Assembly (NCBI GenBank): GCA_001800075.1
Contig: MGUR01000075.1
Coordinates: 34,986 to 77,509 of the forward strand
Source of the DNA: Elusimicrobia bacterium RIFCSPLOWO2_01_FULL_59_12
GTDB taxonomy: Bacteria > Elusimicrobiota > Elusimicrobia > 2-01-FULL-59-12
Reading direction: 5' to 3'
DNA: 42,524 nt
A program made the position numbers and the translations under genes. Below are positions 28,552-42,523 of the stretch, piece by piece; positions within the stretch are counted from its first letter, which is position 1; every line of letters starts with the position of its first letter. Under the pieces are notes generated by a model. The model searched no databases. It was given only the letters and a program-made list of their open reading frames with translations, and had not been told where the DNA came from.

Positions 28552-28602
28552 AACGATCGTAACGGAGTGAGAGCGGCCACATAGCCGCCACTGACAGGCG
28601 AG

Positions 28603-28640
28603 GAGGTCTGTCCCTTAAGGGACGGACCTCTTTTTCATTT
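28603..28640 (+). terminator. Rho-independent terminator between the ANTAR regulator gene and the protease gene
   Basis: GAGGTCTGTCCC-TTAA-GGGACGGACCTC forms 12 bp with one G-U pair, followed by TTTTTCATTT. Confidence 0.8.
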
Positions 28641-29440: not shown

Positions 29441-30775
29441 TTAGGCAGCCACAGGCAGCGCCGAATCCACGGCTTCCAGCGGCAAATACACCTTAAAAAT
29501 CGCTCCTTGTCCGGGTGTTGATTGCACCTCCATGCAGCCGCCGTAGGCACGGACAATATCAGAAACGATGCTGAGCCCCAGGCCCGTCCCTTGAGTACCT
29601 GATTTGGTTGTGATGAACGGTTCAAAAATCCGTTTGCGCAACTGTTCCGGAATCCCGACGCCTGTGTCCTGCACGGAAATGACGACCCAGTCCCGACCCG
29701 AAGCGCGCGTCTGTTCTGTGCGCAAAGTCAGCGTTCCCCCCTTGGGCATGGCGTCGATGGCATTGGTGCAAAGATTGACTACAACCTGTTCGATTTCACT
29801 TCGCCGGCCAACATACGGGCTCTCAACCCGGAGATCGGTCGTGACCTTCACGTCGAGCGCCTTCCTGCCGAGACGAGCCAGCATCACGGACTCTTCTAGG
29901 GCCTCTGAAAGATTAAACGGTTCTTTTTCTTTCGGCAACCGGGCAAACCGCAATAGATTTTCCACCAGACGGTTGCAGCGCTGGGCGCAGCGGTCGACCG
30001 CGGCCAGTGCCGCTCGATCGGAATGAGACGGGGGCATGCGCTCCAAGATATCGCATACATACCCAATGATGACGGACAAGGGGTTTCGGATTTCGTGTGC
30101 CAAGGCACCGGCCATATGGCCCATAGCAGAGAGCTTTTCCGCCTGAATCAGGGCTGCTTGCTTTTTGTCCAGTTCACCGGCTGTCGCCTTAAGTTCTTGC
30201 TTGAGTATCGCTTGCGTCGATTCCAGCTTTCGGAGCAGGGTGCGCTGTCTGGTGGTTTCCTCTGAGAGATAGCTTGTATAAATTGCGATCACGAAGAAAA
30301 GCGGAAACCGCAGAAGCATTTGCGGATTGAGGAGTTCCAAGGGTTTATCTTGGTGCATTAAAAGAGCCACATAGAGCAGGCCGCCCAGAAAGGTGAATGG
30401 GATGGCGTCCCGCAGGCGATGCCCCAGGCTCGATAGGTAAACGAGCAGGAAACAAATGAGATACAGATCCGCATCCACGCCGACGGTTTTGTAGAGTATG
30501 CCGCCCACAAGCACCGTATCCAGCAAAAAGGCCGTCGCTCCGCGATGCGGCGGGATTGCCCCAGTGTGCGCCAGCCACCAGAGCAGGATATTGGAAAGCG
30601 CATACAAGCCCAAAAACAGAAAAGAAGAGAGACTTGAGCCCGGATTGGCATCGCCATGGTATAGGGTCAGAAAGAAAAGGAGGGTCCAAAGAAGCCAGCG
30701 CAGACAAAGCAGGTTTCCACTCTCGGAGAGCAGGAGAGATTTCCGGGTTAGAGCAAACCAACTCACGAAAGCCAT
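29441..30775 (-). CDS. Membrane sensor histidine kinase (multi-TM N-terminal sensor, HisKA, HATPase_c)
   Basis: About 6 TM helices with only short loops, then a coiled coil. H-box AHEIRNPLSVI, N-box NLCTNAIDAM, G-boxes QDTGVGIP and GTGLGLSIV. I preferred ATG 30775 to the TTG at 30811. Confidence 0.85.
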   Translation of the reverse strand: MAFVSWFALTRKSLLLSESGNLLCLRWLLWTLLFFLTLYHGDANPGSSLSSFLFLGLYALSNILLWWLAHTGAIPPHRGATAFLLDTVLVGGILYKTVGVDADLYLICFLLVYLSSLGHRLRDAIPFTFLGGLLYVALLMHQDKPLELLNPQMLLRFPLFFVIAIYTSYLSEETTRQRTLLRKLESTQAILKQELKATAGELDKKQAALIQAEKLSAMGHMAGALAHEIRNPLSVIIGYVCDILERMPPSHSDRAALAAVDRCAQRCNRLVENLLRFARLPKEKEPFNLSEALEESVMLARLGRKALDVKVTTDLRVESPYVGRRSEIEQVVVNLCTNAIDAMPKGGTLTLRTEQTRASGRDWVVISVQDTGVGIPEQLRKRIFEPFITTKSGTQGTGLGLSIVSDIVRAYGGCMEVQSTPGQGAIFKVYLPLEAVDSALPVAA

Positions 30776-30837: not shown

Positions 30838-31365
30838 TTAAGCTGTGGCGGTGGACACGAGACGGAAGGCAGGAGACTGCGTGAATTCAGAGAGCCAGTC
30901 GTATTGCGCTTCGGTGTCAGGCACAAGGCGCCCTCGGGCTTCAGCAATTCGTGAAAAGGCGGAATCCACACGAACTCCTCTAGCCGCCAGCACGCAAGCC
31001 GCCAAAAGCGAAGAACGCCCCACGCCCATCCGGCAATGAAGGACAATCGACTCCCCTCGTGCAAGTTTGTTGACTAACGACTGTATCAACTGAATTGAAT
31101 TTTGGTTGACTTCGGGTACGCCGTGGTCAGGAACCGGAAAATGGATAAATTCGATACCTTGGGCTTTGCAGACTATGTGTTCTTGCTGCAAAGTCCATTC
31201 TTCAACTTCCTCCGGACTGAGAAGAGACACCAGCACGTCGACATTTTCCTCCCGCAAAGCTAATACTTCATCGACGAGTTGCACTCCCCCCCGAGGACGT
31301 GGCATGATTGCCAGACGCCCTGGAGACATTTCCGCGCTAGCAATCCAATAGACTCTGGTATTCAT
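30838..31365 (-). CDS. Cys-based protein phosphatase, dual-specificity/PTP-like (CX5R)
   Basis: P-loop VLHCRMGVGRSS (CX5R-S) and an upstream acid-loop candidate FPVPDHGVP. 175 aa. AAGGA RBS. Confidence 0.75.
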   Translation of the reverse strand: MNTRVYWIASAEMSPGRLAIMPRPRGGVQLVDEVLALREENVDVLVSLLSPEEVEEWTLQQEHIVCKAQGIEFIHFPVPDHGVPEVNQNSIQLIQSLVNKLARGESIVLHCRMGVGRSSLLAACVLAARGVRVDSAFSRIAEARGRLVPDTEAQYDWLSEFTQSPAFRLVSTATA

Positions 31366-31506: not shown

Positions 31507-32631
31507 TCAGAGCCGTTCATAAATAGGCAACTCCACAGTGAAAGTGGACCCCGCATCGACCTTGCTTTCGACATACAGAGCCCCGCGATGCTGCTGCACA
31601 ATCCCATAACAAATCGAAAGTCCAAGGCCCGTCCCTTGGCCCACAGGCTTGGTCGTGAAGAAAGGATCAAAAATCTTATCTTGAATGTCTTTCGGGATTC
31701 CATGGCCGTTGTCCGCACAGCGAACAAACACCTTGTTTCCCCGCTGTCCGGCTTCAATCACGAGCCGGCCCTTTTTGCCGCCCGCCATCGCTTGACGCGC
31801 GTTGGTCAGCAGATTCAGAAAGACCTGCTGCAGCTGGCTCGCGTCTCCCAAGATCAGCGGCAGCGTGGGAGGCACGGTCTGAGAGAGGTCGATCGCCGAG
31901 GTTGAAAAATCATATTTCACCAAGTCAAGAGTCGCCAGGAGGAGCGGCGCCAGATCGAGCACTTCTTGCAGAGGGTCCTTGCGACGGCTGAATTGCAGAA
32001 GGTTCTGGATGATCGTCCGGCACCTCTGGCTCTGGGCGTAGATCGTCTCGATATCTTTCCGTTGCTGGGCCGTCAGGCCGGCGTCCTCCAAAAGGAGCTG
32101 GGCGAAGCCCATGACGCCGCTTAACGGATTGTTGAGCTCATGCGCCACCCCGGCCGCCAGCTGCCCGATCCCCGCCAGTTTTTCCGATTGAATAAGCTGC
32201 ATTTGCGTCGCTTCCAACTTTTTCTTGGTCTCCCGCAGTTCGAGGATCGTTCTCCGGAGATCGCCTTTCTCCAGGGATTTTTCCGCAAGCTGGAAGAGCT
32301 CCTCCAGATTGAAAGGTTTTTGGACAAAGTCGTAAGCCCCTTTTTTCATCGCCATGACGGCGTCCTCGATGGTGGCGTAGCCTGTCATCATGATGACTTC
32401 CATGTCCGAGTCCAACTTCCGGATGTGCTCCAGGATCTCCAGGCCCCCCATTTTGGGCATATTGATGTCGCAGAGGACCAATTGGAATGTTTGCTGCGCC
32501 AGTTTTTCCAGGGCTTGACACCCATCCATCGCGGTGTCCACCTGGTACCCTTGCAGGGCAAACTCGTGAGACAGCAGATCGCGCAATCCCGCCTCATCAT
32601 CGATCACCAGGATTCGGGCATCCTTATTCAT
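31507..32631 (-). CDS. Cytoplasmic hybrid kinase: N-terminal REC domain plus HisKA and HATPase_c
   Basis: REC motifs are ILVIDDE, VLCDINMPKMGG and DFVQKPF. H-box AHELNNPLSGV, N-box LLTNARQAM, G-boxes DNGHGIP and GTGLGLSICYGIV. ATG 32631 lies 4 nt after the ATPase stop. The track start at 32667 is a TTG inside the ATPase gene. Confidence 0.85.
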   Translation of the reverse strand: MNKDARILVIDDEAGLRDLLSHEFALQGYQVDTAMDGCQALEKLAQQTFQLVLCDINMPKMGGLEILEHIRKLDSDMEVIMMTGYATIEDAVMAMKKGAYDFVQKPFNLEELFQLAEKSLEKGDLRRTILELRETKKKLEATQMQLIQSEKLAGIGQLAAGVAHELNNPLSGVMGFAQLLLEDAGLTAQQRKDIETIYAQSQRCRTIIQNLLQFSRRKDPLQEVLDLAPLLLATLDLVKYDFSTSAIDLSQTVPPTLPLILGDASQLQQVFLNLLTNARQAMAGGKKGRLVIEAGQRGNKVFVRCADNGHGIPKDIQDKIFDPFFTTKPVGQGTGLGLSICYGIVQQHRGALYVESKVDAGSTFTVELPIYERL

Positions 32632-32635
32632 CGCA

Positions 32636-33880
32636 TTACTGCACCGTATTCCGGAAAACTTCTTCAATCGTTGTGAATCCTCGACAAACCAAGTCCAGCC
32701 CGGACTGCCGGAGCGTGGCCATGCCCTGGTCTTGCGCCAATTTCTTGAGTTCTTCGACAGATGCCTCGGCTTGAATCAGTCGCTTCAGTTCATCGGTCAC
32801 CGGCATGAGCTCAAAAATGCCCTGCCGCCCGCAATACCCCGCGTCCTGACAGCGCGCGCACCCTTTGGGTCGGTAGAGCGTCGGGATCGTGCCGGTCTTC
32901 AACCCTGGAAATAGATTCTGCAGCATGCGCGCGGGGGGCTGGTAAGCTTCCTTGCAAGTCTCGCAAAGAAGGCGCATGAGACGCTGGGCCATGACCGAGA
33001 TGACCGTCGAAGCAATGAGATAGGAATCGATCCCGATGTCCAGCAAGCGGCCTACGGTTTCCGGGGCGCTGTTGGTGTGCAGAGTCGAAAGGACGAGATG
33101 CCCCGTCATGGCCGCTTTCATCGCCACCTCCGCCGTTTCTTTGTCGCGGATTTCCCCCACCATGATGACATCGGGGTCCTGCCGCAAAGAGGCCCGCAGG
33201 CCCGCCGAAAAGGTGAGACCGATCTTGGGGTTCAACTGCACCTGCGTGACACCGGCTTCGTCGTCCGCTTCGGACATCAGCTCGTATTCGATAGGGTCCT
33301 CCAACGTGATGATGTTCTTTAAAGGCGACCGCAGCCGCGTCAGAACGGAGTACAGCGTGGTCGTTTTGCCGCTGCCGGTGGGCCCGGTGACCAGAATAAT
33401 GCCCTGAGGTTTGTCGATGATCATCTCAAATTGGCTCTGGGTTTTGGGGGCCATGCCCATCTGGCCCAGGTCCATCGCGGCCACTGATTTATCAAGCAGG
33501 CGGATGACAACCTTCTCACCGTATTTTCCCGGCAGCGTGGAAATGCGCATCTCGATATCCCGGTCGCGAACCTTGGTGCGTATCTGGCCGTCTTGCGGCA
33601 GACGCTTTTCGGCGATATCCATCGCCGCCAGGATCTTGATCCGGGACACGATGGCAGGGCAGGCTTCCCTGGGAAATTGATGGATGGTTTGCAGCCCGCC
33701 ATCGATTCGGAAACGAAGAAAGAGTCCCTGCTCCTGCGGTTCGAGGTGGATGTCGCTGGCGCGCCGGCTGAGGGCCATCTCAAAAAGCTTGTCGACCACT
33801 CTCACGATGGGAGCCTGGGAATCCCCTCCCTCAAGACTCAGTTCTTTCGACAGAGGGGTCTTTGGCATTTTCGCGTTCAT
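32636..33880 (-). CDS. GspE/PilB-family secretion-type hexameric ATPase lacking the usual N-terminal domain(s)
   Basis: APIVRVVDKLFEMALSRRASDIHLEP, Walker A GPTGSGKTT, ITLEDPIEY, Walker B PDVIMVGEIRD, His box GHLVLSTLHTN, and the tetracysteine motif CETC...CARC. The start is ATG 33880 in an ATGA overlap with the upstream stop, with GGAGG 5 nt upstream. Confidence 0.85.
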   Translation of the reverse strand: MNAKMPKTPLSKELSLEGGDSQAPIVRVVDKLFEMALSRRASDIHLEPQEQGLFLRFRIDGGLQTIHQFPREACPAIVSRIKILAAMDIAEKRLPQDGQIRTKVRDRDIEMRISTLPGKYGEKVVIRLLDKSVAAMDLGQMGMAPKTQSQFEMIIDKPQGIILVTGPTGSGKTTTLYSVLTRLRSPLKNIITLEDPIEYELMSEADDEAGVTQVQLNPKIGLTFSAGLRASLRQDPDVIMVGEIRDKETAEVAMKAAMTGHLVLSTLHTNSAPETVGRLLDIGIDSYLIASTVISVMAQRLMRLLCETCKEAYQPPARMLQNLFPGLKTGTIPTLYRPKGCARCQDAGYCGRQGIFELMPVTDELKRLIQAEASVEELKKLAQDQGMATLRQSGLDLVCRGFTTIEEVFRNTVQ

Positions 33881-34263
33881 GGAGCCTCCGCGGACCTGCT
33901 TTCCGGGAGAAGCCTCTCCAGAGTCGCCGTCAAACGCTCCGGGTCCCACGGCTTGGTCAGATAATCGTCGGCGCCGCTTTCGAAACCGCGCAGCTGGTCG
34001 ATTTGTTGGCCGAGAGCAGTCAACATAACGACCGGGATCGCCTTGGTTTTAGGGTTGCTCTTGATCTGGCGGCAGATCTGCCAGCCATCCACTCTTGGCA
34101 TCATGACATCTAAAAACACCAGATCGGATGCGGCCGCCTCCAAAAGGCGAACTCCCTCTTCTCCATTGGAAGCCTCCATGACCTCATGGCCGGCCAGCTC
34201 CAAGCGCGTGCGTAAAATATCGCGATTTGCGGGATCGTCATCGATGACGAGAATCTTGCTCAT
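33877..34263 (-). CDS. Stand-alone receiver (CheY-like) response regulator
   Basis: 128 aa. Motifs ILVIDDD, VFLDVMMPRVDG, VMLTA and YLTKPW. No output domain. Confidence 0.9.
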   Translation of the reverse strand: MSKILVIDDDPANRDILRTRLELAGHEVMEASNGEEGVRLLEAAASDLVFLDVMMPRVDGWQICRQIKSNPKTKAIPVVMLTALGQQIDQLRGFESGADDYLTKPWDPERLTATLERLLPESRSAEAP

Positions 34264-34272
34264 GTTATTTCC

Positions 34273-34662
34273 TCATGCCGGTTTCGGATCCGCTTTTTGT
34301 CGGATCCAATGCGCGATCCGCTCCAACACCTCTTGGGGACGACAGGGCTTGGACATATAATCATCGCACCCCGCCTCCTTGGCTTTGAGCTCTTCCCCCG
34401 CCAACGCGTGCGCCGTGAAAGCGATGATCGGCATGTCCTCGAGCGCCGCATCCTCGCGAACGCGCTTGGCCACCTCCCATCCATTGACCCTGGGCATGGA
34501 CAGGTCCAGGAGGACCAGTTCGGGGCGTTCCGAAGCGATTTTCTCCAAGGCCTCCTCGCCGTTGGCGGCCATCACCACCTCATAACTCGCGGCCTCCAGA
34601 GCGTCCCGGATGATCGTCCGATTGTCAAAATCGTCGTCCGCCACCAGGATTTTGTGTCTCAT
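34273..34662 (-). CDS. Stand-alone receiver (CheY-like) response regulator
   Basis: 129 aa. Motifs ILVADDD, VLLDLSMPRVNG, IAFTA and YMSKP. ATGA overlap at 34659-34662. Confidence 0.9.
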   Translation of the reverse strand: MRHKILVADDDFDNRTIIRDALEAASYEVVMAANGEEALEKIASERPELVLLDLSMPRVNGWEVAKRVREDAALEDMPIIAFTAHALAGEELKAKEAGCDDYMSKPCRPQEVLERIAHWIRQKADPKPA

Positions 34663-36569
34663 CGGGCGGCCGCCTCTTTGACCGCATGGAGCTTCTCTTT
34701 CAGAAGTGAAAAAATCTCCTCAAGGCTCCGGGACCCTTTTTGGACGATCATTTCGACGCGCTGTTCCAGATACTGGGTTTCCTGGGGCGTGAGGTGCTTC
34801 GCCGTCATGGCAAAAACGCGCATGCCGTCCAAGGAAGGGTCCTTGTCGATCGCTTCCAGCACTTCAAAACCGCTGATCTGCGGCATCATCAAGTCCAAAA
34901 ATACGATGTCGGGTTTCTCTTTGGACATTTCCGTCAGCGCTTCTTCGCCGTTATGGGCGATGGCGACCCGGTAGCCTTCCTGCTTGAGGTCCCCTTCAAA
35001 GAGCCGGGTGATGGCCGGATCATCGTCAACCACGAGCACCTTATGGGGGGCCCCTTTATCGCAATTCTTTAGCTTCGCGAGCAATTCCTTTCGATCGAAC
35101 GGCTTGACGATATAGTCCGTGACGCCCAACGAAAATCCCAGGGCCTTGTTTTCCATGATCGAAATGATGAAAACAGGGATCGAACGCAGCGCCGGGTCGT
35201 TTTTCAAGAGCTGCAAGACCGACCACCCGTCCATATGCGGCATCATGATGTCCAGGGTGACGGCGTGGGGATGGATCTGACGCGCCAGGGCGAGACCTTC
35301 CTGCCCGCTCTGGGCGCCGACAAATTTGAACCCGGTCCCTTGAAGGCTGTCCGCCAGCAAGGCCAGGACTTCCGGGTCGTCGTCAATGGACAGGATGACT
35401 TTTTGATTATTTTGAACGCCTTCCGGGGCCTTGGAGACAGGGATTTCATCTGGCACAGCCATGCTTTCCATGGGCAAGGTGACCGTGAATGTCGATCCGA
35501 CTCCGACGGCGCTTTTGACCTGGATAGCGCCCCCGAAGAGCTCTACGATTTTCTTGGTGATGGACAAACCCAGCCCGGTCCCGCCGTATTCCCGGGTGGG
35601 AGACGCGTCCAGCTGTTTGAATTCCTCGAAAACAAGGGGAAGGTCCTCGTCCTTAATGCCGATGCCGGTGTCCTGAACGTAGAGACGGACCCGGGAAGGC
35701 CCCGTCAACGCCTCGGCCTTGATCGAGACGCCGCCTTGATGGGTGAATTTGATCGCGTTGCCGATGAGATTGATCAGGACTTGCTTCAGCTTGGTTTTAT
35801 CGGTCCGAAGGAGGATGGGTTCTGAAACGTCCGAGGTCAAGGTCAGTTTCCGCTCGCGGGCCAGGCAGTCCATCGTCCCCAGGACCTCCTCCGTGATGTC
35901 CTTCAGGTCGCACGGCTCAACAAACAAAGACATGCGCCCGGCGGCGAGCTTGGAGAGGTCGAGGATATTATTGATGAGCTGCAAAAGATTTTTCGCGTTG
36001 GTATCGATGCGTTTGATCCCCTGTTCTTGTTTCGGCGAGATCTCCCCGTAGACCTTGTCCAGCAAAAGAGACGAATAGCCGATGATGGCGTTCATGGGGG
36101 TGCGCAGCTCATGGCTCATGTTGGCCAGAAATTCCGATTTCAAACGATTCATCTCCTCCAGATGACCGACTTTCGCCCTGAGGCTGCGGCGTTCCAGGGC
36201 TTTGTCGAAGATGACGCAAAGCTGGTCGAGTCCGTAGGGTTTGGGGATGTAATCAAACGCGCCTTGCTTCATCGATTCGACGGCGGTCTCCAACGTCGCA
36301 TACCCGGTCGCCATGATCACTTCGGCCTCAGGCTGGATCTCTTTGATGCCTTTCAGGACCTCCACCCCGCCGATGCCCGGCATCATGATGTCGCTGACCA
36401 CCAGGTCGAACTTTTCATGTTTGGCTTTTTCCAAACCCTCTTCCCCGCTGGCCGCGGCCACGACCCGGTACCCGCGGTCCGTCAGGCCGAACGCCAGCAT
36501 GTCCCGCAAGCCGGTTTCGTCATCGATCACCAAAACGTTTTGAGTCGCGTCCTTCATCGTTTTACTCAT
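34659..36569 (-). CDS. Hybrid histidine kinase, REC-HisKA-HATPase_c-REC-REC
   Basis: REC1 has VLVIDDE and VVSDIMMPGIGG. H-box SHELRTPMNAI, N-box NLIGNAIKFT, G-boxes DTGIGI and GGTGLGLSI. REC2 has ILSIDDD and TLDIMMPHMDG. REC3 has VLVVDDD and VFLDLMMPQISG. I saw no TM helix. Confidence 0.9.
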   Translation of the reverse strand: MSKTMKDATQNVLVIDDETGLRDMLAFGLTDRGYRVVAAASGEEGLEKAKHEKFDLVVSDIMMPGIGGVEVLKGIKEIQPEAEVIMATGYATLETAVESMKQGAFDYIPKPYGLDQLCVIFDKALERRSLRAKVGHLEEMNRLKSEFLANMSHELRTPMNAIIGYSSLLLDKVYGEISPKQEQGIKRIDTNAKNLLQLINNILDLSKLAAGRMSLFVEPCDLKDITEEVLGTMDCLARERKLTLTSDVSEPILLRTDKTKLKQVLINLIGNAIKFTHQGGVSIKAEALTGPSRVRLYVQDTGIGIKDEDLPLVFEEFKQLDASPTREYGGTGLGLSITKKIVELFGGAIQVKSAVGVGSTFTVTLPMESMAVPDEIPVSKAPEGVQNNQKVILSIDDDPEVLALLADSLQGTGFKFVGAQSGQEGLALARQIHPHAVTLDIMMPHMDGWSVLQLLKNDPALRSIPVFIISIMENKALGFSLGVTDYIVKPFDRKELLAKLKNCDKGAPHKVLVVDDDPAITRLFEGDLKQEGYRVAIAHNGEEALTEMSKEKPDIVFLDLMMPQISGFEVLEAIDKDPSLDGMRVFAMTAKHLTPQETQYLEQRVEMIVQKGSRSLEEIFSLLKEKLHAVKEAAAR

Positions 36570-37011
36570 GGGTCACCCTCCCGCATTGTTGGCACTGGGA
36601 CAGGCGTTCCACCGCCTGCCGGACGCGCGCCATTAAATGTTCCAAGTCGTAGGGTTTAAGCACAAAATCGAAGGCCCCCTTTTTCATCGCGTGGACGGCG
36701 GTTTCCACCGCGCCGAAGCCCGTGGCGACGATCACCTCGGTTTGAGGGTTTGTTTTTTTAATATTTTCCAGGAGTTTTAGTCCATCCATCTCGGGCATGG
36801 TGATGTCGGTGATGATCACGTCGAATTTTGTTTCCCCGGCCCTCTGGACCCCTTCGGCCCCGTTTTCCGCGGTCTCCACGCTCATCCCGCGATTGTTCAG
36901 TTCCCACTTCAGCAGGTTCCTGAAGCCGGGTTCATCATCCACCACCAGGACCATCAACGTTTTTGGCGGCTGCGGGCGGTTTTTATCCGGGATTTCATTC
37001 TCTGGGTTCAT
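36562..37011 (-). CDS. Stand-alone receiver response regulator (NtrC-type REC, no output domain)
   Basis: Motifs VLVVDDE, IITDITMPEMDG, VATGFG and DFVLKPY. ATGA overlap at 37008-37011. Confidence 0.9.
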   Translation of the reverse strand: MNPENEIPDKNRPQPPKTLMVLVVDDEPGFRNLLKWELNNRGMSVETAENGAEGVQRAGETKFDVIITDITMPEMDGLKLLENIKKTNPQTEVIVATGFGAVETAVHAMKKGAFDFVLKPYDLEHLMARVRQAVERLSQCQQCGRVTHE

Positions 37012-38873
37012 GATTTCGCCATGTTCGCTGGGCTTATGGGAAGACCGGCGGCGCGCACGGGGAACTTGGCGCAGAATTCCGTGCGCCCGGGACGGCTTTC
37101 CACATCAATGGTCCCTGAATGTTTTTTTATGATCTCATGCACCAGGCTCAGCCCCAGGCCCGTTCCTTTGCCTACCGGCTTGGTCGTAAAGAAGGGATCG
37201 AAGATGCGGGACTGGATCTCCCCCGGGATGCCGGGCCCGGTGTCCAGCACCTTCAAACACACCCAGGACAGCGGGCCTTCTTTCAGGTTTTCGGTTTTGA
37301 AGGTCAGCAGGCCCTCCGCGTCTCCCATGGCATCCAGCGCGTTATTGGCGAGGTTGACGATGATCTGTTGAATCTGGTTCAGATTGCCCAGGATCCGGGG
37401 CAGATCGGGGGCCAGCTCTTTGCGCACATCCACATGCGTCAGGCGCGCCTGGGCGATCACCAGGGAAAGGGCCCCTTCCACGGCCCGGTTGACGTCCAGC
37501 GGTTCCCGGTCGATTTTGGAAACCCTGGAAAAGGTGAGAAGGTCCTGGACCAATCCCTTGCACCGGACGGCCTCCTTTTCGATGGATTTCAAAGGGAGTT
37601 CCAGCGGATCGTTCGGTTGTAAGCGGCGAACGACCGCCTGGGCAAACCCCAGGATCACTCCCAGCGGATTGTTGATCTCATGCGCGACCCCCGCGGCCAG
37701 CTGTCCCACGGCGGACAATTTCTCCGACTGGCGGATCGCCCCTTCCAATTTCTTGCGTTCTCTCATGTCCTTGGCCACGGCGATGATCCCGGTGGGACGG
37801 CCTTCAGTGTCCTTGAGCGTGGAGCTGGAGAAAAGGACCGGGACTTTGACGCCCGTTTTCGTCAGGAAATCCAGCTCCAGGTTCCGGACCGATCCCTTTC
37901 CGATCAACGTCTCCTGCTCGGCCGCGTCCGATATTTTGTCCTTGGCTACAAATAAGATAGGGGCGCGCCGGCCTTCCAGCTCTTCTTTCGCATACCCCAA
38001 AAGGTCTATCGTGGCCTGGTTCACCATTCGAATGACGCCGTCCTTTGTCATCACAATCAGCGGGTCGATCATATGGGAAAGGACGTCTCCCAGGAAATTC
38101 TTGGATACCGTCGTTTCGCCCAGGACCCTGCTCATGCGGTTGAAATCCTCCGCCAATCGGCCCAGTTCATCTTTGGATAGAACGGGGACGCTGACGCCGT
38201 ATTCCCCGCGGCTGATTTGTGAAGTCCCCCTGGAGAGGAGTTTGATCGGCCGGAGCAGCCGGCGCATCAAGATGAGGACCAGCGAAAGGCCGATCCCGGC
38301 GGTCATGAGCACGATGGCGGCGATCTTGCGGAAAAGCCGGCGCTGCGTGTTGAAAACTTCTTTCAACGGCAGGCCGAGCCGCACCGTCCCCAGGCGGGTC
38401 CTGCCGGGCGCCTCCCCCCCTCCTAAAAGGAACTCCTCCTCCACATCGGCTTTCGGAGCGGACCAGACAGGGACCGAAACCAGCATGACGGGGCTCCCCC
38501 TCCATTCGGATGACCCGGTCACAGGCGAGAGGGCCTTCAGCCCTTCGAGCGTGGCGGCGTCGTCATAAATTTTCCCTTTCTCGGTTACATTCGTGTGCGC
38601 CAACACCTCTCCGGACAAACCGAGCGCCTCCGCGTACATGGCGCCGGCGCGCTCCTGGGCGGATTGCAGAAGCGGCAGCAGCGCTTGTTCGCGCCGCGCC
38701 GCGAGGCCCGCCGAGGCGCTTTCGGCCAGGCTGGAGGCGCTTAAGACGCCCCGCCTTTCAACATCTTTCAGGAGGATTTGACGCACGGCGTTTCGGACCG
38801 TCAAGAGGAGCGGCCCCCCCAGGAGCAGGGCCACTGAAGTGAAGATCAGCAGGATCTTAAATTGAAGCCTCAT
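37008..38873 (-). CDS. Membrane sensor histidine kinase (TM, periplasmic domain, TM, HAMP, PAS, HisKA, HATPase_c)
   Basis: I placed the start at ATG 38873 (MRLQFKILLIFTSVALLLGG), which makes an ATGA overlap with the upstream stop. The second TM is IAAIVLMTAGIGLSLVLILM. HAMP region LSKDELGRLAEDFNRM, PAS-like DPLIVMTKDGVIRMVNQATIDLLGY, H-box AHEINNPLGVI, G-box GTGLGLSLV. Confidence 0.85.
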   Translation of the reverse strand: MRLQFKILLIFTSVALLLGGPLLLTVRNAVRQILLKDVERRGVLSASSLAESASAGLAARREQALLPLLQSAQERAGAMYAEALGLSGEVLAHTNVTEKGKIYDDAATLEGLKALSPVTGSSEWRGSPVMLVSVPVWSAPKADVEEEFLLGGGEAPGRTRLGTVRLGLPLKEVFNTQRRLFRKIAAIVLMTAGIGLSLVLILMRRLLRPIKLLSRGTSQISRGEYGVSVPVLSKDELGRLAEDFNRMSRVLGETTVSKNFLGDVLSHMIDPLIVMTKDGVIRMVNQATIDLLGYAKEELEGRRAPILFVAKDKISDAAEQETLIGKGSVRNLELDFLTKTGVKVPVLFSSSTLKDTEGRPTGIIAVAKDMRERKKLEGAIRQSEKLSAVGQLAAGVAHEINNPLGVILGFAQAVVRRLQPNDPLELPLKSIEKEAVRCKGLVQDLLTFSRVSKIDREPLDVNRAVEGALSLVIAQARLTHVDVRKELAPDLPRILGNLNQIQQIIVNLANNALDAMGDAEGLLTFKTENLKEGPLSWVCLKVLDTGPGIPGEIQSRIFDPFFTTKPVGKGTGLGLSLVHEIIKKHSGTIDVESRPGRTEFCAKFPVRAAGLPISPANMAKS

Positions 38874-39757
38874 GGAATCTTTTTTTCCACCTTTTGAAGG
38901 AGTTCCGGCGACAATTTCAGGCCGCATTCGGAGGCCGAGGCCATATTCACCGCGATGCGCGGCTTGTCGGGATAAACCTGGGTCTCTTTCACGGCCCCCG
39001 CCAGCAGGTCTTTGGCGGCTTGCGCCGCGATCCGGCCGATGTCGGCAAACGAGGAGGCCACCGAGGCGGTGGCCCCCTGTTCCACCAGTTCGAGGGTCGG
39101 GACATAAAAAGGGATGTGGTTGGAAGAACAAAATTCTTTGATCAAATTGAAATTGTGCGAGGTGATGAGGCGAGGGTCCGGGGGAATCCAAATCGCGTTG
39201 ATCTGGGACCGCAGGGCTCGCAGATGGTCCGGAAGATCGTCCGAACCCTCCATTTTGTCGATGATGACCCGGACTCCCATCCCGCCGCCCAGCTGCTGCA
39301 TTTGTGCGTTGAATGGGCCCCATCCCTCCGAGAGGCCCAGAATGCCCAACGTTCGCAGGTTGGGTTGGATCTCTTTGAGCGTATTCATCACCGTGGGGGC
39401 GGGCGGCATCATGTAAATTTTTACAACGGGAGCCTTCCGATCGTTGGAAGGGAGGAACATTCCCGGCGCCATGCAGTAAACCATCGCCACGTCTTTGCGC
39501 TGGATCTGCAGAGCCGCTTTCCCGCCGATCGCCACCACCACGCGCGTCCCGGCAGGAAGACTGATGTCTCCGTTGGAAAGGTAGAGCACGGGGACGGAGC
39601 GACCCAGACCTTCCTGAACGCCGGCCAAGGCCGCCTGATAGGGGCCGAGATTTGAACTGAGGACCACCGCGATCTCATCGGCCCAGGCCGCGGGGGGGCC
39701 CACCCCGCTACAAACAAGCAAGAAGACGACGAGCCGGCGTTTCATGAAGGCCCGCAT
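38870..39757 (-). CDS. Periplasmic substrate-binding-like protein (ABC_sub_bind/PF04392-like)
   Basis: Signal peptide RRLVVFLLVCSGVGPPAAWA. The alternating beta-alpha layout includes EIAVVLSS, VVVAIGGKAA, LGILGLSEG, INAIWIPPDP, HIPFYV and GATASV, as I remember for this family. I saw no ABC permease or ATPase gene nearby. An alternative start is at 39745. Confidence 0.55.
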   Translation of the reverse strand: MRAFMKRRLVVFLLVCSGVGPPAAWADEIAVVLSSNLGPYQAALAGVQEGLGRSVPVLYLSNGDISLPAGTRVVVAIGGKAALQIQRKDVAMVYCMAPGMFLPSNDRKAPVVKIYMMPPAPTVMNTLKEIQPNLRTLGILGLSEGWGPFNAQMQQLGGGMGVRVIIDKMEGSDDLPDHLRALRSQINAIWIPPDPRLITSHNFNLIKEFCSSNHIPFYVPTLELVEQGATASVASSFADIGRIAAQAAKDLLAGAVKETQVYPDKPRIAVNMASASECGLKLSPELLQKVEKKIP

Positions 39758-41691
39758 TAGAAGGAGACCTCCACGCCCCCATAGAGGGTCCGGCCCTGGT
39801 TCACGGGAAGCGAGTCGCCCGGCGCAAAACCCCAGTTGGGCAGCCAGATCTCTTGGTTGGAGAGATTGTCCACGCGGAACAACAGGGACAGGCCGCGCGC
39901 GAGCCGCCAGCCTGTCAATTTGTCCATGTCGAACCGGCTGTTCAGGTTCAGGATGTTGTAGGCGCCCGGCGAGGGGTTGACGCTGGCGTCATATTTGCCG
40001 TCCAATTTTCCCTGATAGATGTCGTACAGGCTCACGGTCACGCCTCGGTCGGCCTTGTAGCTGACCCCGGCTTTGCCGCCGGCGCTGGCGACCGGCGTCA
40101 CGGCCGTGCCGCCCGTCTGGTCCTGGCTGGTTTGATAAAGCGCGGAAGCCAGCAGGAGGAGCCGCCTGTTCAGGCGATACTTGCTCTCGATCCCCACCCC
40201 CCGGGCCTCAATTTCTCCGGTGTTGTTATAGACACCCACGGCGCCGGAGCGGTCTTGGAAGATGAGGTTTTTGAGCTTGCTGTAGAAATAATCCAAACCT
40301 AGCTGAAGGTTGTTCCGGTCGTAGCCGATCGCCAGATCGAAGGTATCGATCTTCTCGGACTTCAGGTTCGGGTTGCCTTTCAGTCCGGGATGGTTCAACC
40401 CCAGTTCATTGATCGAGGGCGCCCGGAAGGCCTGGCCGTAAAGCGCCTTGATATGGACGTGGGGGGCGGGGTGGAAGATCGCGCCGCCCCGAGGGACAGC
40501 GTCGGCATCGACCCCTTGAACCTTGTTGAACTGGAATCCCCCGATCAATTTCAGCTTGGACAACAGCCAATAGTCCATTTGGGTGTAAAGCCCATAGCTG
40601 TTTCGATCGCCGTGGGATATTTGAAAACCGGGGGCGCCGGTATATTCTTCCCGGCCGTTGGCGTGATTGACCGATCCCCCCACCGCCATCGCGAGCTTGT
40701 CGGTAGGCGTGATGAAGTGGGTCCACTCCCCGCCCAATTCATACGAATGCCTTTCCACGTGCGGCCAGGCCGTTTCCGTATTAAAGTCCGATCCGGTATA
40801 GGTCACGTTCAAGTCCATGCGCCAGAGGTCGTTGACCTGCCGGCTGTATCCGGCGTCGGCAAAACGCTTTTTCCAATTCGCCGGCCCGGGCGTCGAAATA
40901 CCCGGGATGAAAAAGGCGTTATGCCATTCGGAATACGCCGACATCACGCGCCAATTCTTATAGTCGATTGCCGTGAAGGCGCCCGGGCCCCGGTCCGGCA
41001 TGTTGATTCGTCTCGATGTGAGGCCGCTTAAACCGGCGGCATTCCACCGGGTATTCCACTCCGGTTTCTGATGGAATTTTCCCGCCGCGAGCATCCCGAA
41101 ATCGCCGCTTCGGACCTGGGCTTTGGCCATGGCATCGGCCGCGCCCTTATCGCCCTTCAGGGCGTCCACGGCGGCCCCCGTGCCTTCCGGTCTTTCTGTA
41201 ATAACGTTGATCACGCCCGACACGGCGCCGGAGCCGTAAAGCACCGAGCCGGGCCCCTTGACGACCTCGATCCGCTGGATGATGTTCACGGGGAACGATT
41301 CCAGCATGTCGCTGACGATGCCGCCCTCCATGATTTCACGCACGGGCCGGCCGTTAATCAGCAGCAGGACGTGGGCCCCGCTCGCTTTAAACTGGGCCCC
41401 GCGGACGGCGATCATGCTGCGGTCCGTCATGAATGAGGAAGCGCCGGCCAGGCCGGGGACGCGCCGGAGAATATCCGCCAGGGTGGCGCCCCCGAACCGC
41501 TCCAGCTCGTCTTTGGTCACGACGGACATGACCCCCGGCGCGTCCGACAGGTTCTGGAGGCTTTTCGACGCCGTGATCACCTTCGCTTCTTCCTGGAAAA
41601 ATTGAAAGGCATTGTCCATCTCCGCCGTCGCCGGCGAGACTTGGCTTAAGACGAGGCATAGCGACAGGACGCGTCTCTTTGCGTTATTCAT
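39757..41691 (-). CDS. TonB-dependent outer-membrane receptor
   Basis: Signal peptide, then a TonB-box-like AKVITAS. Plug motifs are VVTKDELERFGGATLADILRRVPGL and VVKGPGSVLYGSGAVSGVINVIT. The beta-barrel body ends in a terminal Phe (YGGVEVSF). Confidence 0.9.
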   Translation of the reverse strand: MNNAKRRVLSLCLVLSQVSPATAEMDNAFQFFQEEAKVITASKSLQNLSDAPGVMSVVTKDELERFGGATLADILRRVPGLAGASSFMTDRSMIAVRGAQFKASGAHVLLLINGRPVREIMEGGIVSDMLESFPVNIIQRIEVVKGPGSVLYGSGAVSGVINVITERPEGTGAAVDALKGDKGAADAMAKAQVRSGDFGMLAAGKFHQKPEWNTRWNAAGLSGLTSRRINMPDRGPGAFTAIDYKNWRVMSAYSEWHNAFFIPGISTPGPANWKKRFADAGYSRQVNDLWRMDLNVTYTGSDFNTETAWPHVERHSYELGGEWTHFITPTDKLAMAVGGSVNHANGREEYTGAPGFQISHGDRNSYGLYTQMDYWLLSKLKLIGGFQFNKVQGVDADAVPRGGAIFHPAPHVHIKALYGQAFRAPSINELGLNHPGLKGNPNLKSEKIDTFDLAIGYDRNNLQLGLDYFYSKLKNLIFQDRSGAVGVYNNTGEIEARGVGIESKYRLNRRLLLLASALYQTSQDQTGGTAVTPVASAGGKAGVSYKADRGVTVSLYDIYQGKLDGKYDASVNPSPGAYNILNLNSRFDMDKLTGWRLARGLSLLFRVDNLSNQEIWLPNWGFAPGDSLPVNQGRTLYGGVEVSF

Positions 41692-42523
41692 GGCATTTCT
41701 CCTTGGGGGAATCCGTTCGGCGGTCCCAGATGATCAGGCTTTGGCCGTTGTGGTCCTGTTCCTTCACGTATTTTTTTAATTCGCTGGCAATCTCCGCCAG
41801 CCGGGCGTAATGCAGGATGCGGCGGGTCGCGGTGGAAACAACCGCCACGGACAATGCCATCAAGGGAAAGGCTTTTACCTGGCCTTGACGGTCCTTCGTT
41901 TGAAGGGCCCCCCGTTCCAAATCCTCGCGGTGATACATCGCCTCCCGTTGGGCATCGAAATTCTTCGCGATCCGGGGCATGGCGGCCTCCATATGGTCCA
42001 CAATGGACAAAAAAACGAAATCATCCCCGCCCACGTGACCCGCAAATGCGCACCCGTTCGGCGCGAACTTCACCGCTTCCATTAATAAGGAGGCCAGGCG
42101 TTTAATGACCTTGTCTCCCGCTTCGTAGCCGTAAACGTCGTTATACGCCTTGAAGTTGTCCACGTCGATATAGGCGAACGCGAAGGGGGACCCGATCTTC
42201 AACCGCTTCCAGACCTCATCCTCGATGGCGGGGCTGCCCGGGAGGCGCGTCAAGGGATGGCTGGAAAGGTCCCATCGGCGGCGCTGCAGGACGCCCTCCA
42301 ACCGCGCCTGGACCTCCTCCAGATCAAACGGCTTGCCGATGTAGTCGTCGACCCCTAGACGAAGGCCTTTCAGCTTGTCTTTCAGCGTGTTGAGCGCCGT
42401 CAGCAGAATGATCGGCAAGGAGCGCGTGGCGAAATCCGACCGTAATTTTTGACAGACGGCCAGTCCGTCCATGACCGGCATCCGCACATCCAGGAGAACG
42501 AGATCGGGGACCGACTCGCTCAC
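41684..42523 (-). CDS. Response regulator with GGDEF-like output domain carrying a GGDDF motif; 5' end lies beyond the right edge of the window
   Basis: The window starts inside the REC domain (DLVLLDVRMPVMDG, ILLTA, YIGKPF). The GGDEF-like part reads HPLTRLPGSP...FAYIDVDNFKAYNDVYGYEAGDKVIKRLA...GHVGGDDFVFL. The stop overlaps the TBDR start (ATGAATAA). Confidence 0.8.
   Translation of the reverse strand: MSESVPDLVLLDVRMPVMDGLAVCQKLRSDFATRSLPIILLTALNTLKDKLKGLRLGVDDYIGKPFDLEEVQARLEGVLQRRRWDLSSHPLTRLPGSPAIEDEVWKRLKIGSPFAFAYIDVDNFKAYNDVYGYEAGDKVIKRLASLLMEAVKFAPNGCAFAGHVGGDDFVFLSIVDHMEAAMPRIAKNFDAQREAMYHREDLERGALQTKDRQGQVKAFPLMALSVAVVSTATRRILHYARLAEIASELKKYVKEQDHNGQSLIIWDRRTDSPKEKCHE

What the first reader, a model, noticed from the sequence alone, without database searches (positions are those of the whole stretch)
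32636..34662. Orphan, N-terminally short GspE/PilB-type ATPase translationally coupled to CheY-like receivers
The 414-aa ORF (32636-33880) has the complete secretion-ATPase core: ASDIHLEP, Walker A GPTGSGKTT, Asp box, Walker B, His box and the CETC...CARC tetracysteine. It begins only about 25 aa before that core. It therefore lacks the N1E/GspL-binding or MshEN-type N-domains that normally tether or regulate these motors.

Its ATG overlaps the stop of a stand-alone REC gene (ATGA, with GGAGG upstream). A second stand-alone REC gene lies 9 nt further up, and a REC-HK starts 4 nt downstream. I saw no GspF/PilC platform, pilin, prepilin peptidase or secretin anywhere in the 42.5 kb.

Inference: the hexameric ATPase serves as an output or modulator of a phosphorelay. 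A phosphorylated REC protein may replace the missing N-domain. The target could be the adjacent polysaccharide machinery rather than a classical T2SS/T4P.
Basis: partly seen in the sequence, partly recalled or inferred. Interest (0 to 1): 0.7.

Follow-up and report, generated by a model that had tools for sequence, protein, structure and literature searches.

The report
PilB-like ATPase wired into a phosphorelay
A pilus/secretion-type motor ATPase that has lost its usual docking domain sits directly behind its own conserved CheY-like receiver gene inside a histidine-kinase operon, here and in about fifteen related uncultured bacteria, so it looks like a motor switched by phosphorylation rather than an ordinary secretion gene.

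Summary
The 414-aa ORF (33880-32636, minus strand) is a complete PilB/GspE-type ATPase core, N2 plus C-terminal domain, with all catalytic motifs and the zinc tetracysteine. It has no N1/MshEN domain. Its start overlaps the stop of a stand-alone receiver gene, inside a ~13-kb operon made almost entirely of two-component genes. No platform, pilin, peptidase or secretin gene lies in the 42.5 kb.

Comparative data add three points.
- **Clade.** The ATPase belongs to a mostly Elusimicrobial clade marked by a 7-aa insertion after the Asp box.
- **Context.** In 15 of 18 distinct loci a single-domain receiver lies immediately upstream, and in the 14 whose sequences were compared it belongs to one orthologous family, "REC-P". 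Ten loci have a REC-HK-REC-REC hybrid kinase before it. PilC/GspF is present in 1 of 18 loci, against 44 of 63 control PilB/GspE loci.
- **N1 loss.** It is recurrent and late. The closest orthologue (75% identity) sits in the same operon and keeps half an N1 domain, and deeper relatives keep a full MshEN.

So the link to the phosphorelay is well supported. "REC replaces the N-domain" is not supported as stated, because REC-P predates the loss. The EPS link is not conserved. Whether a pilus platform exists elsewhere in the genome is untested.

The parts
32636..33880 (-). PilB/GspE-type ATPase, 414 aa, N2 domain plus C-terminal ATPase domain only, with no N1/MshEN domain
   Evidence: Pfam finds T2SSE over 21-410 only. 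NCBIfam scores for GspE and PilB are below cut-off and start at model positions 98 and 173. PDB alignment. AF2 model and Foldseek. Catalytic and zinc residues are invariant in an 86-sequence alignment.
33254..33277 (-). Clade-marking insertion (residues 202-209, MSEADDEA; 7 extra residues compared with ordinary PilB/GspE) directly after the Asp box
   Evidence: Alignment of 117 homologues: present in P0001-P0080, P0082 and P0109, absent in all other PilB/GspE hits. In the AF2 model it is a coil between strands 190-194 and 211-215, with a local pLDDT dip.
33877..34263 (-). REC-P: stand-alone receiver, 128 aa; its stop overlaps the ATPase start (ATGA)
   Evidence: Pfam Response_reg only. Acidic residues D8-D10, D52, T82 and K104 are present (read). 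It belongs to one orthologous family found immediately upstream of the ATPase; 14 loci were compared.
34273..34662 (-). REC-D: second stand-alone receiver, 129 aa
   Evidence: Pfam Response_reg. D9-D11, D53, T83 and K105 are present. It belongs to a separate orthologous family seen only with the ~500-aa and short ATPases.
34659..36569 (-). Hybrid histidine kinase REC-HisKA-HATPase-REC-REC, 636 aa
   Evidence: Pfam. The same architecture lies in the same position in 10 distinct loci.
36562..37011 (-). Stand-alone receiver, 149 aa
   Evidence: Pfam. The syntenic gene is present in L001 and L007.
37008..38873 (-). sCache-HAMP-PAS histidine kinase (621 aa by the database gene call; the 771-aa ORF listed is an over-extension)
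   Evidence: Pfam; gene call in L003.
38870..39757 (-). Periplasmic ABC_sub_bind (PF04392) protein
   Evidence: Pfam. It recurs with the kinase in L001, L007, L008 and L084.
39757..41691 (-). TonB-dependent receptor (Plug plus beta-barrel)
   Evidence: Pfam. It recurs in L001, L007 and L008.
41684..42472 (-). REC-GGDEF-like protein, first gene of the operon; the motif reads GGDDF
   Evidence: Pfam; translation; gene call and upstream intergenic gap in L003.
31507..32631 (-). REC-HisKA-HATPase kinase, 374 aa, starting 4 nt after the ATPase stop
   Evidence: Pfam; sequence. A REC-(GAF)-HK gene lies downstream of the ATPase in L001, L007, L008, L084 and L086-88.
30838..31365 (-). Dual-specificity/Tyr-type phosphatase, 175 aa
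   Evidence: Pfam DSPc, PTP-SAK and Tc-R-P. Seen only on this organism's own contigs (L003, L004), so it is not part of the conserved core.
29441..30775 (-). DUF4118 membrane histidine kinase, last gene of the operon
   Evidence: Pfam; gene call. It is followed by genes on the opposite strand.

Best explanation
**What it is.** The gene encodes an active hexameric motor ATPase of the type IV pilus extension (PilB) lineage. This lineage has become the dedicated effector of a phosphorelay.

**Conserved core.** The core is a hybrid kinase (REC-HK-REC-REC), then a stand-alone receiver of one orthologous family (REC-P), then the ATPase. In the branch that holds this window there is also a second receiver family (REC-D) and a REC-HK gene downstream.

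**Proposed mechanism.**
1. The outer-membrane receptor, periplasmic binding protein and HAMP-PAS kinase at the head of the operon sense an external ligand.
2. The kinases phosphorylate REC-P, and REC-D acts as a competing or second input.
3. Phosphorylated REC-P binds the N2/CTD core of the ATPase.
4. That binding gates hexamer closure, ATP turnover or recruitment to a type IV pilus-like platform encoded elsewhere.

**History of the N-terminus.** The clade's relatives show a series. There is a full MshEN with one receiver, then half an N1 (the MshEN_C part) with two receivers, then no N1, as here. Control in cis through the N-terminus was progressively given up. In this protein, regulation and any docking must go through the core or through partner proteins.

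**Shown versus inferred.**
- Shown: domain content, intact motifs, operon structure, conserved synteny, REC-P orthology, and absence of nearby platform genes.
- Inferred: phosphotransfer to REC-P, REC-P binding to the ATPase, and the pilus platform as the final target.
For: - **Intact enzyme.** Walker A, Asp box, Walker B, His box, the arginines and four Cys are invariant across 86 homologues. The model is confident and matches the PilB/PilF cores.
- **Tight operon.** Junctions are 4-8-nt overlaps or gaps of 4-9 nt from the kinase genes through the ATPase to the next kinase. No DNA-binding output domain is encoded in the operon.
- **Synteny.** REC lies immediately upstream in 15 of 18 distinct clade loci, against 2 of 63 controls (Fisher p = 1e-11). 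T2SSF is present in 1 of 18, against 44 of 63 (p = 9e-7).
- **REC-P.** It forms one orthologous group across short, ~500-aa and full-length ATPase loci (45-62% identity for five pairs against the window's copy; 41% for the most distant one, L167). It is distinct from REC-D and from generic receivers. Both window receivers keep the phospho-acceptor Asp, Thr and Lys.
- **Pilus ancestry.** The basal lineage of the insertion clade (L113, about 80% identical to P0069) is a second PilB inside a canonical pilD-pilB-pilC-pilT-pilin-pilMN-pilO locus.
- **Independent parallels.** REC-PilB-PilC (L104) and REC/HK-REC-PilB (L075) arrangements exist outside the clade.
- **Precedent.** Response-regulator proteins bind PilB1 in Synechocystis (bioRxiv 10.1101/2021.06.11.447907). 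PilB cofactors are reviewed in PMC11656802.
Against: - No direct evidence of REC-P binding to the ATPase. No REC-ATPase fusion appears among the 120 closest homologues.
- In Synechocystis the PATAN domain, not the receiver, binds PilB1, and it binds the N-terminal region. Plain CheY-type proteins did not bind. Here there is no PATAN domain and no N1.
- N1 is thought to dock extension ATPases to PilM/GspL (PMC11656802). An N1-less protein may therefore be unable to engage a pilus machine at all.
- No platform gene was found in any Elusimicrobial locus examined. Whether this genome has one is unknown. The only pil-locus relative is from a Margulisbacteria-like organism.
Confidence: 0.5

Rival explanations
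1. **Exapted signalling ATPase.** The PilB-derived hexamer no longer works on any pilus or secretion platform. It is a cytoplasmic component of the phosphorelay itself, for example an ATP-driven scaffold, timer or remodeller that sets the activity of the flanking kinases. Its state would be read by, or set by, REC-P and REC-D.
For: - N1, the presumed docking domain for PilM/GspL, has been lost repeatedly while the catalytic core stays invariant.
- The gene is sandwiched between kinases in a conserved order, with a REC-HK directly downstream.
- Platform, pilin and peptidase genes are absent from all 17 kinase-embedded loci.
- The operon has no other obvious output apart from a GGDDF-type GGDEF protein.
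- M. xanthus PilB is reported to act as a signalling protein for EPS (PMC5544727).
Against: - No T2SSE-family ATPase is known to work without a membrane platform.
- The zinc tetracysteine and the whole PilB-type core are conserved as in working motors.
- Type IV pilus genes are often scattered, so absence within +/-10 kb is weak evidence.
- The basal relatives sit in a pil locus.
Confidence: 0.2
2. **Ordinary pilus or T2SS ATPase, co-transcribed only.** The ATPase is a normal extension motor for a machine encoded elsewhere. It sits in the operon only so that its amount follows the operon's transcription. The receivers act on other targets and do not touch the ATPase.
For: - Pilus genes are commonly dispersed.
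- Elusimicrobiota are reported to encode pilins, PilD and Tad-like systems (PMC11257099; PMC8809381; PMC6668835).
- The enzyme core is indistinguishable from working PilB/GspE.
Against: - One specific receiver family stays immediately upstream of the ATPase, often with overlapping start and stop codons, down to about 54% ATPase identity and in MAGs labelled as three phyla. Co-expression alone does not easily explain that.
- No transcription-factor output is encoded in the operon.
- The scores fall below the NCBIfam equivalog cut-offs for both GspE and PilB.
- N1 is missing.
Confidence: 0.2
3. **The first reader's version.** A phosphorylated receiver stands in for the lost N-domain, and the motor acts on the adjacent Wza/Wzc/Wzy polysaccharide export machinery.
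For: - The EPS cluster (1-27 kb) lies 2-3 kb downstream of the operon on the same strand.
- A Tyr/dual-specificity phosphatase in the operon could serve the Wzc-like kinase.
- M. xanthus PilB influences EPS (PMC5544727).
Against: - The EPS neighbourhood is not conserved in orthologous loci.
- REC-P accompanies ATPases that still have N1 or a full MshEN, so it is not a replacement.
- Two opposite-strand genes and an intergenic region separate the operon from the EPS genes.
Confidence: 0.07
4. **Decaying remnant.** This is an N-terminally truncated, non-functional relic of a PilB gene.
For: It lacks a domain that most relatives have.
Against: - All catalytic and zinc residues are intact.
- Four contigs from three assemblies carry the identical 414-aa protein.
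- Short forms with the same precise boundary, keeping the KELxL linker motif, recur in several lineages and keep the upstream receiver genes.
- A ribosome-binding site and start/stop overlap are in place.
Confidence: 0.03

Closest known systems
Type IVa pilus extension ATPase PilB (Geobacter PilB 5TSH/5ZFR; Thermus PilF core 5OIU/5IT5)
   Same: Same N2+CTD fold (Foldseek TM up to 0.88/0.94, 45-48% identity), the same motifs and the same zinc tetracysteine. The clade's basal lineage lies in a pil locus.
   Different: - No N1D/GSPII domain. The review PMC11656802 says this domain distinguishes extension from retraction ATPases.
- A 7-aa insertion after the Asp box.
- Not next to pilC.
- Below the NCBIfam PilB cut-off (522 against 675 bits).
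T2SS ATPase GspE/EpsE (4PHT, 1P9R, 4KSR)
   Same: Best sequence match in the PDB (E = 1e-118). The natural protein corresponds almost exactly to the engineered N1-deleted EpsE construct 1P9R.
   Different: - Lacks N1E, the domain that binds GspL.
- No gsp genes nearby.
- Below the GspE equivalog cut-off (529 against 630 bits).
Synechocystis PatA-type (PATAN-REC) regulators PixE/PixG/LsiR acting on PilB1
   Same: Response-regulator proteins that act directly on a pilus extension ATPase instead of on DNA.
   Different: - There the PATAN domain binds the N-terminal region of PilB1, and plain CheY-type proteins did not bind.
- Here the receivers have no PATAN domain and the ATPase has no N-terminal region.
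- Here the genes form one operon with the kinases.
MshE/PilB c-di-GMP control through MshEN (V. cholerae MshE; PMC5013675)
   Same: A regulatory input to the same ATPase family. Deeper relatives of this clade still carry a full MshEN, some with a good first c-di-GMP motif (P0069, P0082).
   Different: This protein has neither the MshEN_N four-helix bundle nor MshEN_C, so it has no c-di-GMP site of that kind. Its ~500-aa relatives keep only MshEN_C.
Pil-Chp type chemosensory control (PilG/PilH CheY-like proteins)
   Same: Single-domain receivers that control pilus motor function (PMC11656802).
   Different: No CheA, CheW or MCP genes here. The kinases are classical HisKA kinases, and the receiver gene is translationally coupled to the ATPase gene.
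PilT/PilU retraction ATPases
   Same: The same two-domain architecture without N1.
   Different: Sequence and phylogeny place this protein with PilB/GspE (about 380-400 bits against about 123 bits for PilT chains in the PDB; TIGR01420 190 against a cut-off of 319). It has the zinc tetracysteine insert of extension ATPases.

Membership tests
PilT-like/T2SSE secretion ATPase superfamily (PF00437) | Walker A, Asp box, Walker B and His box in an N2+CTD two-lobed fold | tested here: met
   Pfam 449 bits; motifs; invariant residues; AF2 model and Foldseek.
Extension-type ATPases (PilB/GspE subgroup) | Zinc-binding tetracysteine insert in the CTD | tested here: met
   C306, C309, C341 and C344 are invariant in 86 sequences.
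Extension-type ATPases (PilB/GspE subgroup) | N-terminal N1D / GSPII / MshEN domain | tested here: not met
   No PF05157 hit. The alignments to GspE, PilB and the PDB start after N1. The upstream gene overlaps the start codon, so there is no room for N1.
T2SS GspE (TIGR02533) | Score above the equivalog cut-off, and a gsp operon with GspF and GspL | tested here: not met
   529 bits against a cut-off of 630. No T2SSF, pseudopilin or secretin in the window.
T4aP PilB (TIGR02538) | Score above the equivalog cut-off, and linkage to pilC/pilM or another pil locus | tested here: not met
   522 bits against a cut-off of 675. No pil genes in the window or in 17 kinase-embedded relatives; only the basal lineage L113 is in a pil locus.
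T4aP PilB / T2SS GspE | A platform protein (PilC/GspF) somewhere in the same genome | not testable with these tools
   Only 42.5 kb of the genome is available. The genome-collection scan returned no Elusimicrobial locus.
MshE-type c-di-GMP receptors | Tandem 24-residue RLGxxLLxxGLIxxxxLxxxLxxQ motifs in MshEN_N | tested here: not met
   The region is absent from this protein.
PilT/PilU retraction ATPases (TIGR01420) | Family score above the cut-off, and no zinc insert | tested here: not met
   190 bits against a cut-off of 319. The tetracysteine is present.
CheY-like single-domain response regulators (the two upstream genes) | Receiver fold with an acidic pair, phospho-acceptor Asp, Thr/Ser and Lys, and no output domain | tested here: met
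   Pfam Response_reg only. D8-D10/D52/T82/K104 and D9-D11/D53/T83/K105 were read from the translations.
Chemosensory (Che / Pil-Chp) systems | CheA-type kinase, CheW and an MCP | tested here: not met
   The window has only HisKA-type kinases and no CheA, CheW or MCP domains.
PatA-type regulators of PilB | PATAN domain fused to the receiver | tested here: not met
   Both receiver proteins are 128-129 aa with only Response_reg.

The most novel reading that the evidence does not exclude
A pilus-motor ATPase has been taken out of the pilus machine and now works as a soluble, ATP-driven component inside a two-component phosphorelay. It would have been stripped step by step of its c-di-GMP-binding and docking domains. 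The conserved set of hybrid kinase, REC-P, ATPase and REC-HK would then be a new kind of signalling device in which a hexameric motor, not a transcription factor or cyclase, processes or emits the signal.
Probability: 0.2. Interest if true: 0.85.

Novelty: new variant of a known kind. Interest (0 to 1): 0.6.

Why it matters
**What is known.** Extension ATPases of type IV pili and T2SS are controlled by c-di-GMP bound to their N-terminal domain, by PilZ/FimX, and in cyanobacteria by PATAN-REC proteins.

**What this adds.** A conserved operon-level pairing with a dedicated plain receiver and hybrid kinase has, as far as my literature searches show, not been described. It comes with a natural series from full MshEN to half N1 to no N1.

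**If REC-P does gate the ATPase.**
- It would be the simplest known route from a histidine kinase to a pilus-type motor.
- It would show that the N1 domain is dispensable in nature. That bears on the open question of what N1 does.
- The short forms are natural equivalents of the core constructs used for crystallography. They would make convenient material for biochemistry.

**If the ATPase turns out to be platform-independent.** It would be a new use of this motor family.

**Annotation.** These genes are currently labelled GspE, PilB or TadA in Elusimicrobial MAGs. They should not be counted as evidence of a T2SS.

Tried and rejected
- **Genome-collection scan with the ATPase.** The peptide patterns hit only outgroup PilB/GspE genes from other phyla (50% identity or less). 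It gave no Elusimicrobial genome. I used the loci as controls instead.
- **Metagenome scan with a clade-specific segment alignment.** Only 6 of 80 loci carried the insertion; the rest served as further controls.
- **Whether a related genome has PilC.**
  - The listing of cluster members gave no organism names.
  - A PilC search from L113 showed that locus to be Saganbacteria/Margulisbacteria-like, not Elusimicrobial.
  - The E. minutum genome paper is not held.
  - The question stays open.
- **REC-ATPase fusion proteins.** None among the 120 closest homologues by their Pfam strings. More distant ones were not searched.
- **Promoter and terminator scan of the operon.** Counts were at the level of shuffled sequence and uninformative.
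- **Rfam scan of the window.** No hits.
- **Possible mis-call hiding an N-domain.** The 437-aa GTG-start reading runs into the receiver gene in another frame and has no similarity to N1. The database gene callers chose 414 aa. Rejected.
- **PilT-like retraction motor** (same two-domain layout). Rejected on sequence scores and the zinc insert.
- **Counting independent N1 losses from the NJ tree.**
  - The tree has no support values.
  - The REC-P tree disagrees with the ATPase tree on whether the window groups with L001 or L007.
  - I therefore claim only "several", with four short forms verified by locus inspection (window, L002, L007, L168).
Full report
**1. Observation**

All genes of the region lie on the minus strand.

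The ORF 33880-32636 encodes 414 aa.
- Pfam finds one domain, T2SSE (PF00437), over residues 21-410 (E = 1e-134). It finds no PF05157/MshEN.
- NCBIfam aligns the protein to positions 98-486 of the 486-position GspE model and to positions 173-563 of the 564-position PilB model. The scores are 529 and 522 bits, below the curated cut-offs of 630 and 675.
- Against solved structures the best match is V. vulnificus GspE residues 113-497. The protein is co-linear with the N1-deleted EpsE crystallisation construct 1P9R.
- An AlphaFold2 model built on 86 homologues has mean pLDDT 93.7. The first helix starts at residue 24, and residues 1-23 form no domain.
- Foldseek's best matches are the N2+CTD core constructs of Thermus PilF and Geobacter PilB (TM 0.88/0.94).
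- Walker A (166-174), Asp box (194-198), Walker B (235-246), His box (259-269) and the four Cys (306, 309, 341, 344) are present. They are invariant in the 86-sequence alignment.

- The ATPase ATG overlaps the TGA of a 128-aa receiver gene, and GGAGG lies 4 nt upstream.
- The next receiver gene ends 9 nt before that one.
- The REC-HK gene starts at ATG 32631, 4 nt after the ATPase stop.

No T2SSF, pilin, prepilin peptidase or secretin is encoded in the window. This was checked in two ways:
- Pfam on every large ORF;
- HMMs that I built from Pfam-verified examples, plus a prepilin-motif scan of all ORFs of 60 aa or more.

**2. The operon**

Using the database gene calls for the identical contig, the operon runs from 42472 to 29441 in this order:
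1. REC-GGDEF-like protein (motif GGDDF)
2. TonB-dependent receptor
3. ABC_sub_bind periplasmic protein
4. sCache-HAMP-PAS kinase
5. REC
6. REC-HK-REC-REC hybrid kinase
7. REC (here called REC-D)
8. REC (here called REC-P)
9. ATPase
10. REC-HK
11. 52-aa ORF
12. Dual-specificity-type phosphatase
13. DUF4118 kinase

Most junctions are overlaps of 4-8 nt or gaps under 10 nt. The operon encodes no DNA-binding output domain and no Hpt domain. Both ends are visible. An intergenic gap and an opposite-strand gene lie upstream, and opposite-strand protease and ANTAR-regulator genes lie downstream. No platform gene therefore hides just outside the operon.

The Wza/Wzc/Wzy polysaccharide cluster occupies 1-27 kb.

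**3. Relatives and their N-termini**

The best hits (54-75% identity) that carry names are from Elusimicrobiota/Endomicrobiales MAGs.

A neighbour-joining tree separates a clade (P0001-P0065, P0070, P0079, P0080) from ordinary PilB/GspE of other phyla. A wider superclade is marked by a 7-aa insertion directly after the Asp box (EDPIEYEL-xxxxxxx-G[IV]TQVQ). It holds P0001-P0080, P0082 and P0109. Every other hit lacks the insertion.

Three architectures occur within the superclade.
- **About 557-606 aa, full MshEN.** Some have a good first c-di-GMP motif, for example P0069 and P0082.
- **About 490-515 aa.** The N-terminus aligns only to the second half of N1 (Geobacter PilB 82-165; PilF GSPII 65-138). 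This is MshEN_C without the c-di-GMP-binding helical bundle.
- **About 400-436 aa, no N1.** This is the form in the window.

The short forms are scattered through the tree next to long sisters. The nearest relative of the window's protein, P0002 (75% identity), is a 497-aa form.

Four short forms were checked at the DNA level: the window, L002, L007 and L168. In all four a receiver gene ends at or over the ATPase start, so the shortness is real.

Most short forms begin just before a linker motif, (C)KELxL, that long forms carry between N1 and N2. The deletions are therefore clean removals of the domain.

**4. Gene context**

I obtained 18 distinct loci of the insertion superclade:
- from exact-protein look-ups with precomputed Pfam;
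- from a metagenome scan, annotated with my HMMs.

Their contexts are as follows.
- **Fifteen** have a single-domain receiver gene immediately upstream on the same strand.
- **One** (L006) has a kinase there.
- **One** (L090) has unrelated neighbours.
- **One** (L113) lies in a canonical pil locus: pilD, pilB (no insertion), pilC, pilT, pilins, the insertion-bearing ATPase, a pilM-pilN fusion, then pilO.

L113's ATPase is about 80% identical to P0069, the basal lineage. Its PilC relatives are named Saganbacteria/Margulisbacteria.

| Feature | Insertion superclade | Control PilB/GspE loci (no insertion, at least 3 kb of flank on each side) | Fisher p |
|---|---|---|---|
| T2SSF in the locus | 1 of 18 | 44 of 63 | 9e-7 |
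| Receiver gene directly adjacent | 15 of 18 | 2 of 63 | 1e-11 |

 The loci are phylogenetically related, so these p-values illustrate the contrast rather than measure independent events.

Ten loci share the REC-HK-REC-REC hybrid kinase just before the stand-alone receiver(s). Eight have a REC-(GAF)-HK gene after the ATPase.

The HK-REC-ATPase triad also occurs in MAGs labelled Planctomycetes (L166) and Armatimonadetes (L167).

**5. The receivers**

I compared the receiver sequences from 14 loci.
- The receivers directly upstream of the ATPase form one orthologous family, REC-P. It is present with full-length, half-N1 and N1-less ATPases.
- The second receiver forms a separate family, REC-D. 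It is found only with the ~500-aa and short forms.
- A REC-P profile scores its members at 180-200 bits, REC-D at 105-130 and other receivers at 85 or less. This is partly circular, because the profile was built from the members, but the gap is wide.
- Both window receivers keep the acidic pair, the phospho-acceptor Asp (D52, D53), Thr and Lys.
- Loci with a full MshEN have one stand-alone receiver upstream (L083, L089, L166, L167). Most loci with reduced or absent N1 have two upstream. The exceptions are L002 (one upstream, one downstream), L006 (a kinase upstream) and L085 (a longer REC-containing protein). The sample is small.

**6. Interpretation**

The association of this ATPase lineage with a dedicated receiver and hybrid kinase is ancient and conserved. 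The enzyme is intact, and the operon has no conventional output.

The most economical reading is this:
- the ATPase is the effector of the phosphorelay;
- REC-P is its direct regulator and acts on the N2/CTD core, because REC-P is retained where N1 is gone;
- the ancestry in a pil locus, and independent REC-PilB-PilC arrangements elsewhere (L104), point to a type IV pilus-like platform as the likely final target.

The known parallels differ from this case.
- PATAN-REC proteins bind PilB1 in Synechocystis. There the PATAN domain binds the N-terminal region, and plain CheY proteins did not bind.
- PilG/PilH and c-di-GMP/MshEN control PilB in other bacteria.

I give the main model 0.5.

The main rivals are:
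- an ATPase that has left the pilus machine and works inside the signalling pathway (0.2);
- mere co-transcription of an ordinary motor (0.2).

- REC-P predates N1 loss, so it is not a replacement.
- The EPS neighbourhood is not conserved.

**7. Novelty**

The protein is a member of the T2SSE superfamily and of the extension-ATPase subgroup by fold and motifs. It fails the defining N1 feature and both equivalog thresholds, and it has no linked platform.

Five of the literature searches found no description of a conserved hybrid kinase - receiver - PilB-like ATPase operon, or of natural N1-less PilB-type ATPases. The MshEN paper notes only that MshEN occurs fused to REC and other domains.

I class it as a new variant of a known kind.

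**8. Limits**
- The rest of the genome could not be searched for PilC/PilM.
- No complex prediction or experiment was possible.
- The tree has no support values. The ATPase and REC-P trees disagree on the window's nearest neighbour.
- Organism names of several MAGs are as deposited.

Noticed in passing
window 38870-41691, 37008-38873; also L001, L007, L008, L084: A TonB-dependent receptor, an ABC_sub_bind (PF04392) periplasmic protein and a HAMP-PAS histidine kinase recur together at the head of (or, in L008, after) the ATPase module. They look like a ligand-sensing front end running from the outer membrane to a kinase.
   Followed up: partly
window 41684-42472: The first gene of the operon is a REC-GGDEF-like protein whose signature reads GGDDF instead of GG(D/E)EF, and Pfam covers only part of the GGDEF model. 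It may be a degenerate cyclase or a receptor.
   Followed up: no
window 30838-31365 and 23253-25043: A dual-specificity/Tyr-type phosphatase sits inside the two-component operon, about 6 kb from a Wzc-like (Wzz-GNVR-AAA_31) tyrosine-kinase-type gene of the EPS cluster. It is present only on this organism's own contigs and not in orthologous loci.
   Followed up: partly
window 1-27000: A large polysaccharide cluster on the same strand. It holds Wza (Poly_export/SLBB), a BBP2 porin, a Wzc-like gene, two Wzy_C proteins (one fused to TPR repeats), a PMT_2 glycosyltransferase, three or four GT9 (heptosyltransferase-like) genes including a flippase-GT9 fusion, two radical-SAM/SPASM genes, several methyltransferases, and a 1151-aa methyltransferase-GT1-GT1 fusion.
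   Followed up: no
window 27883-28551 (+) and 28693-29376 (+): A REC-ANTAR RNA-binding response regulator and a secreted trypsin-like protease lie on the opposite strand between the signalling operon and the EPS cluster. A strong terminator-like hairpin lies at 28600-28633 between them.
   Followed up: no
L113 2267-13296: A Margulisbacteria/Saganbacteria-like pil locus with two extension ATPases. One is an ordinary PilB next to PilC and PilT. The other is an insertion-bearing PilB directly upstream of a PilM-PilN fusion and PilO. This second PilB is the nearest pilus-linked relative of the window's ATPase.
   Followed up: partly
L104 7045-11742; L075 6406-11170: Outside the clade, ordinary PilB genes also occur directly behind a single-domain receiver gene. 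L104 has RR, REC, PilB (628 aa) and PilC. L075 has REC-HK, REC and PilB. These receivers are not of the REC-P family, so the arrangement seems to have arisen more than once.
   Followed up: partly
window 33877-34263 compared with L001 and L007: The window's REC-P is more similar to that of the short-form locus L007 (62%) than to that of the long-form locus L001 (55%). The ATPase and REC-D show the opposite order. This may reflect assembly errors in L001 or changes in REC-P that accompany N1 loss.
   Followed up: no
L085 6306-7772: In one relative (P0070, 507 aa) the gene directly upstream of the ATPase encodes a 488-aa protein with a receiver domain plus a region that hits SMC_hinge, rather than a plain 125-aa receiver.
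   Followed up: no
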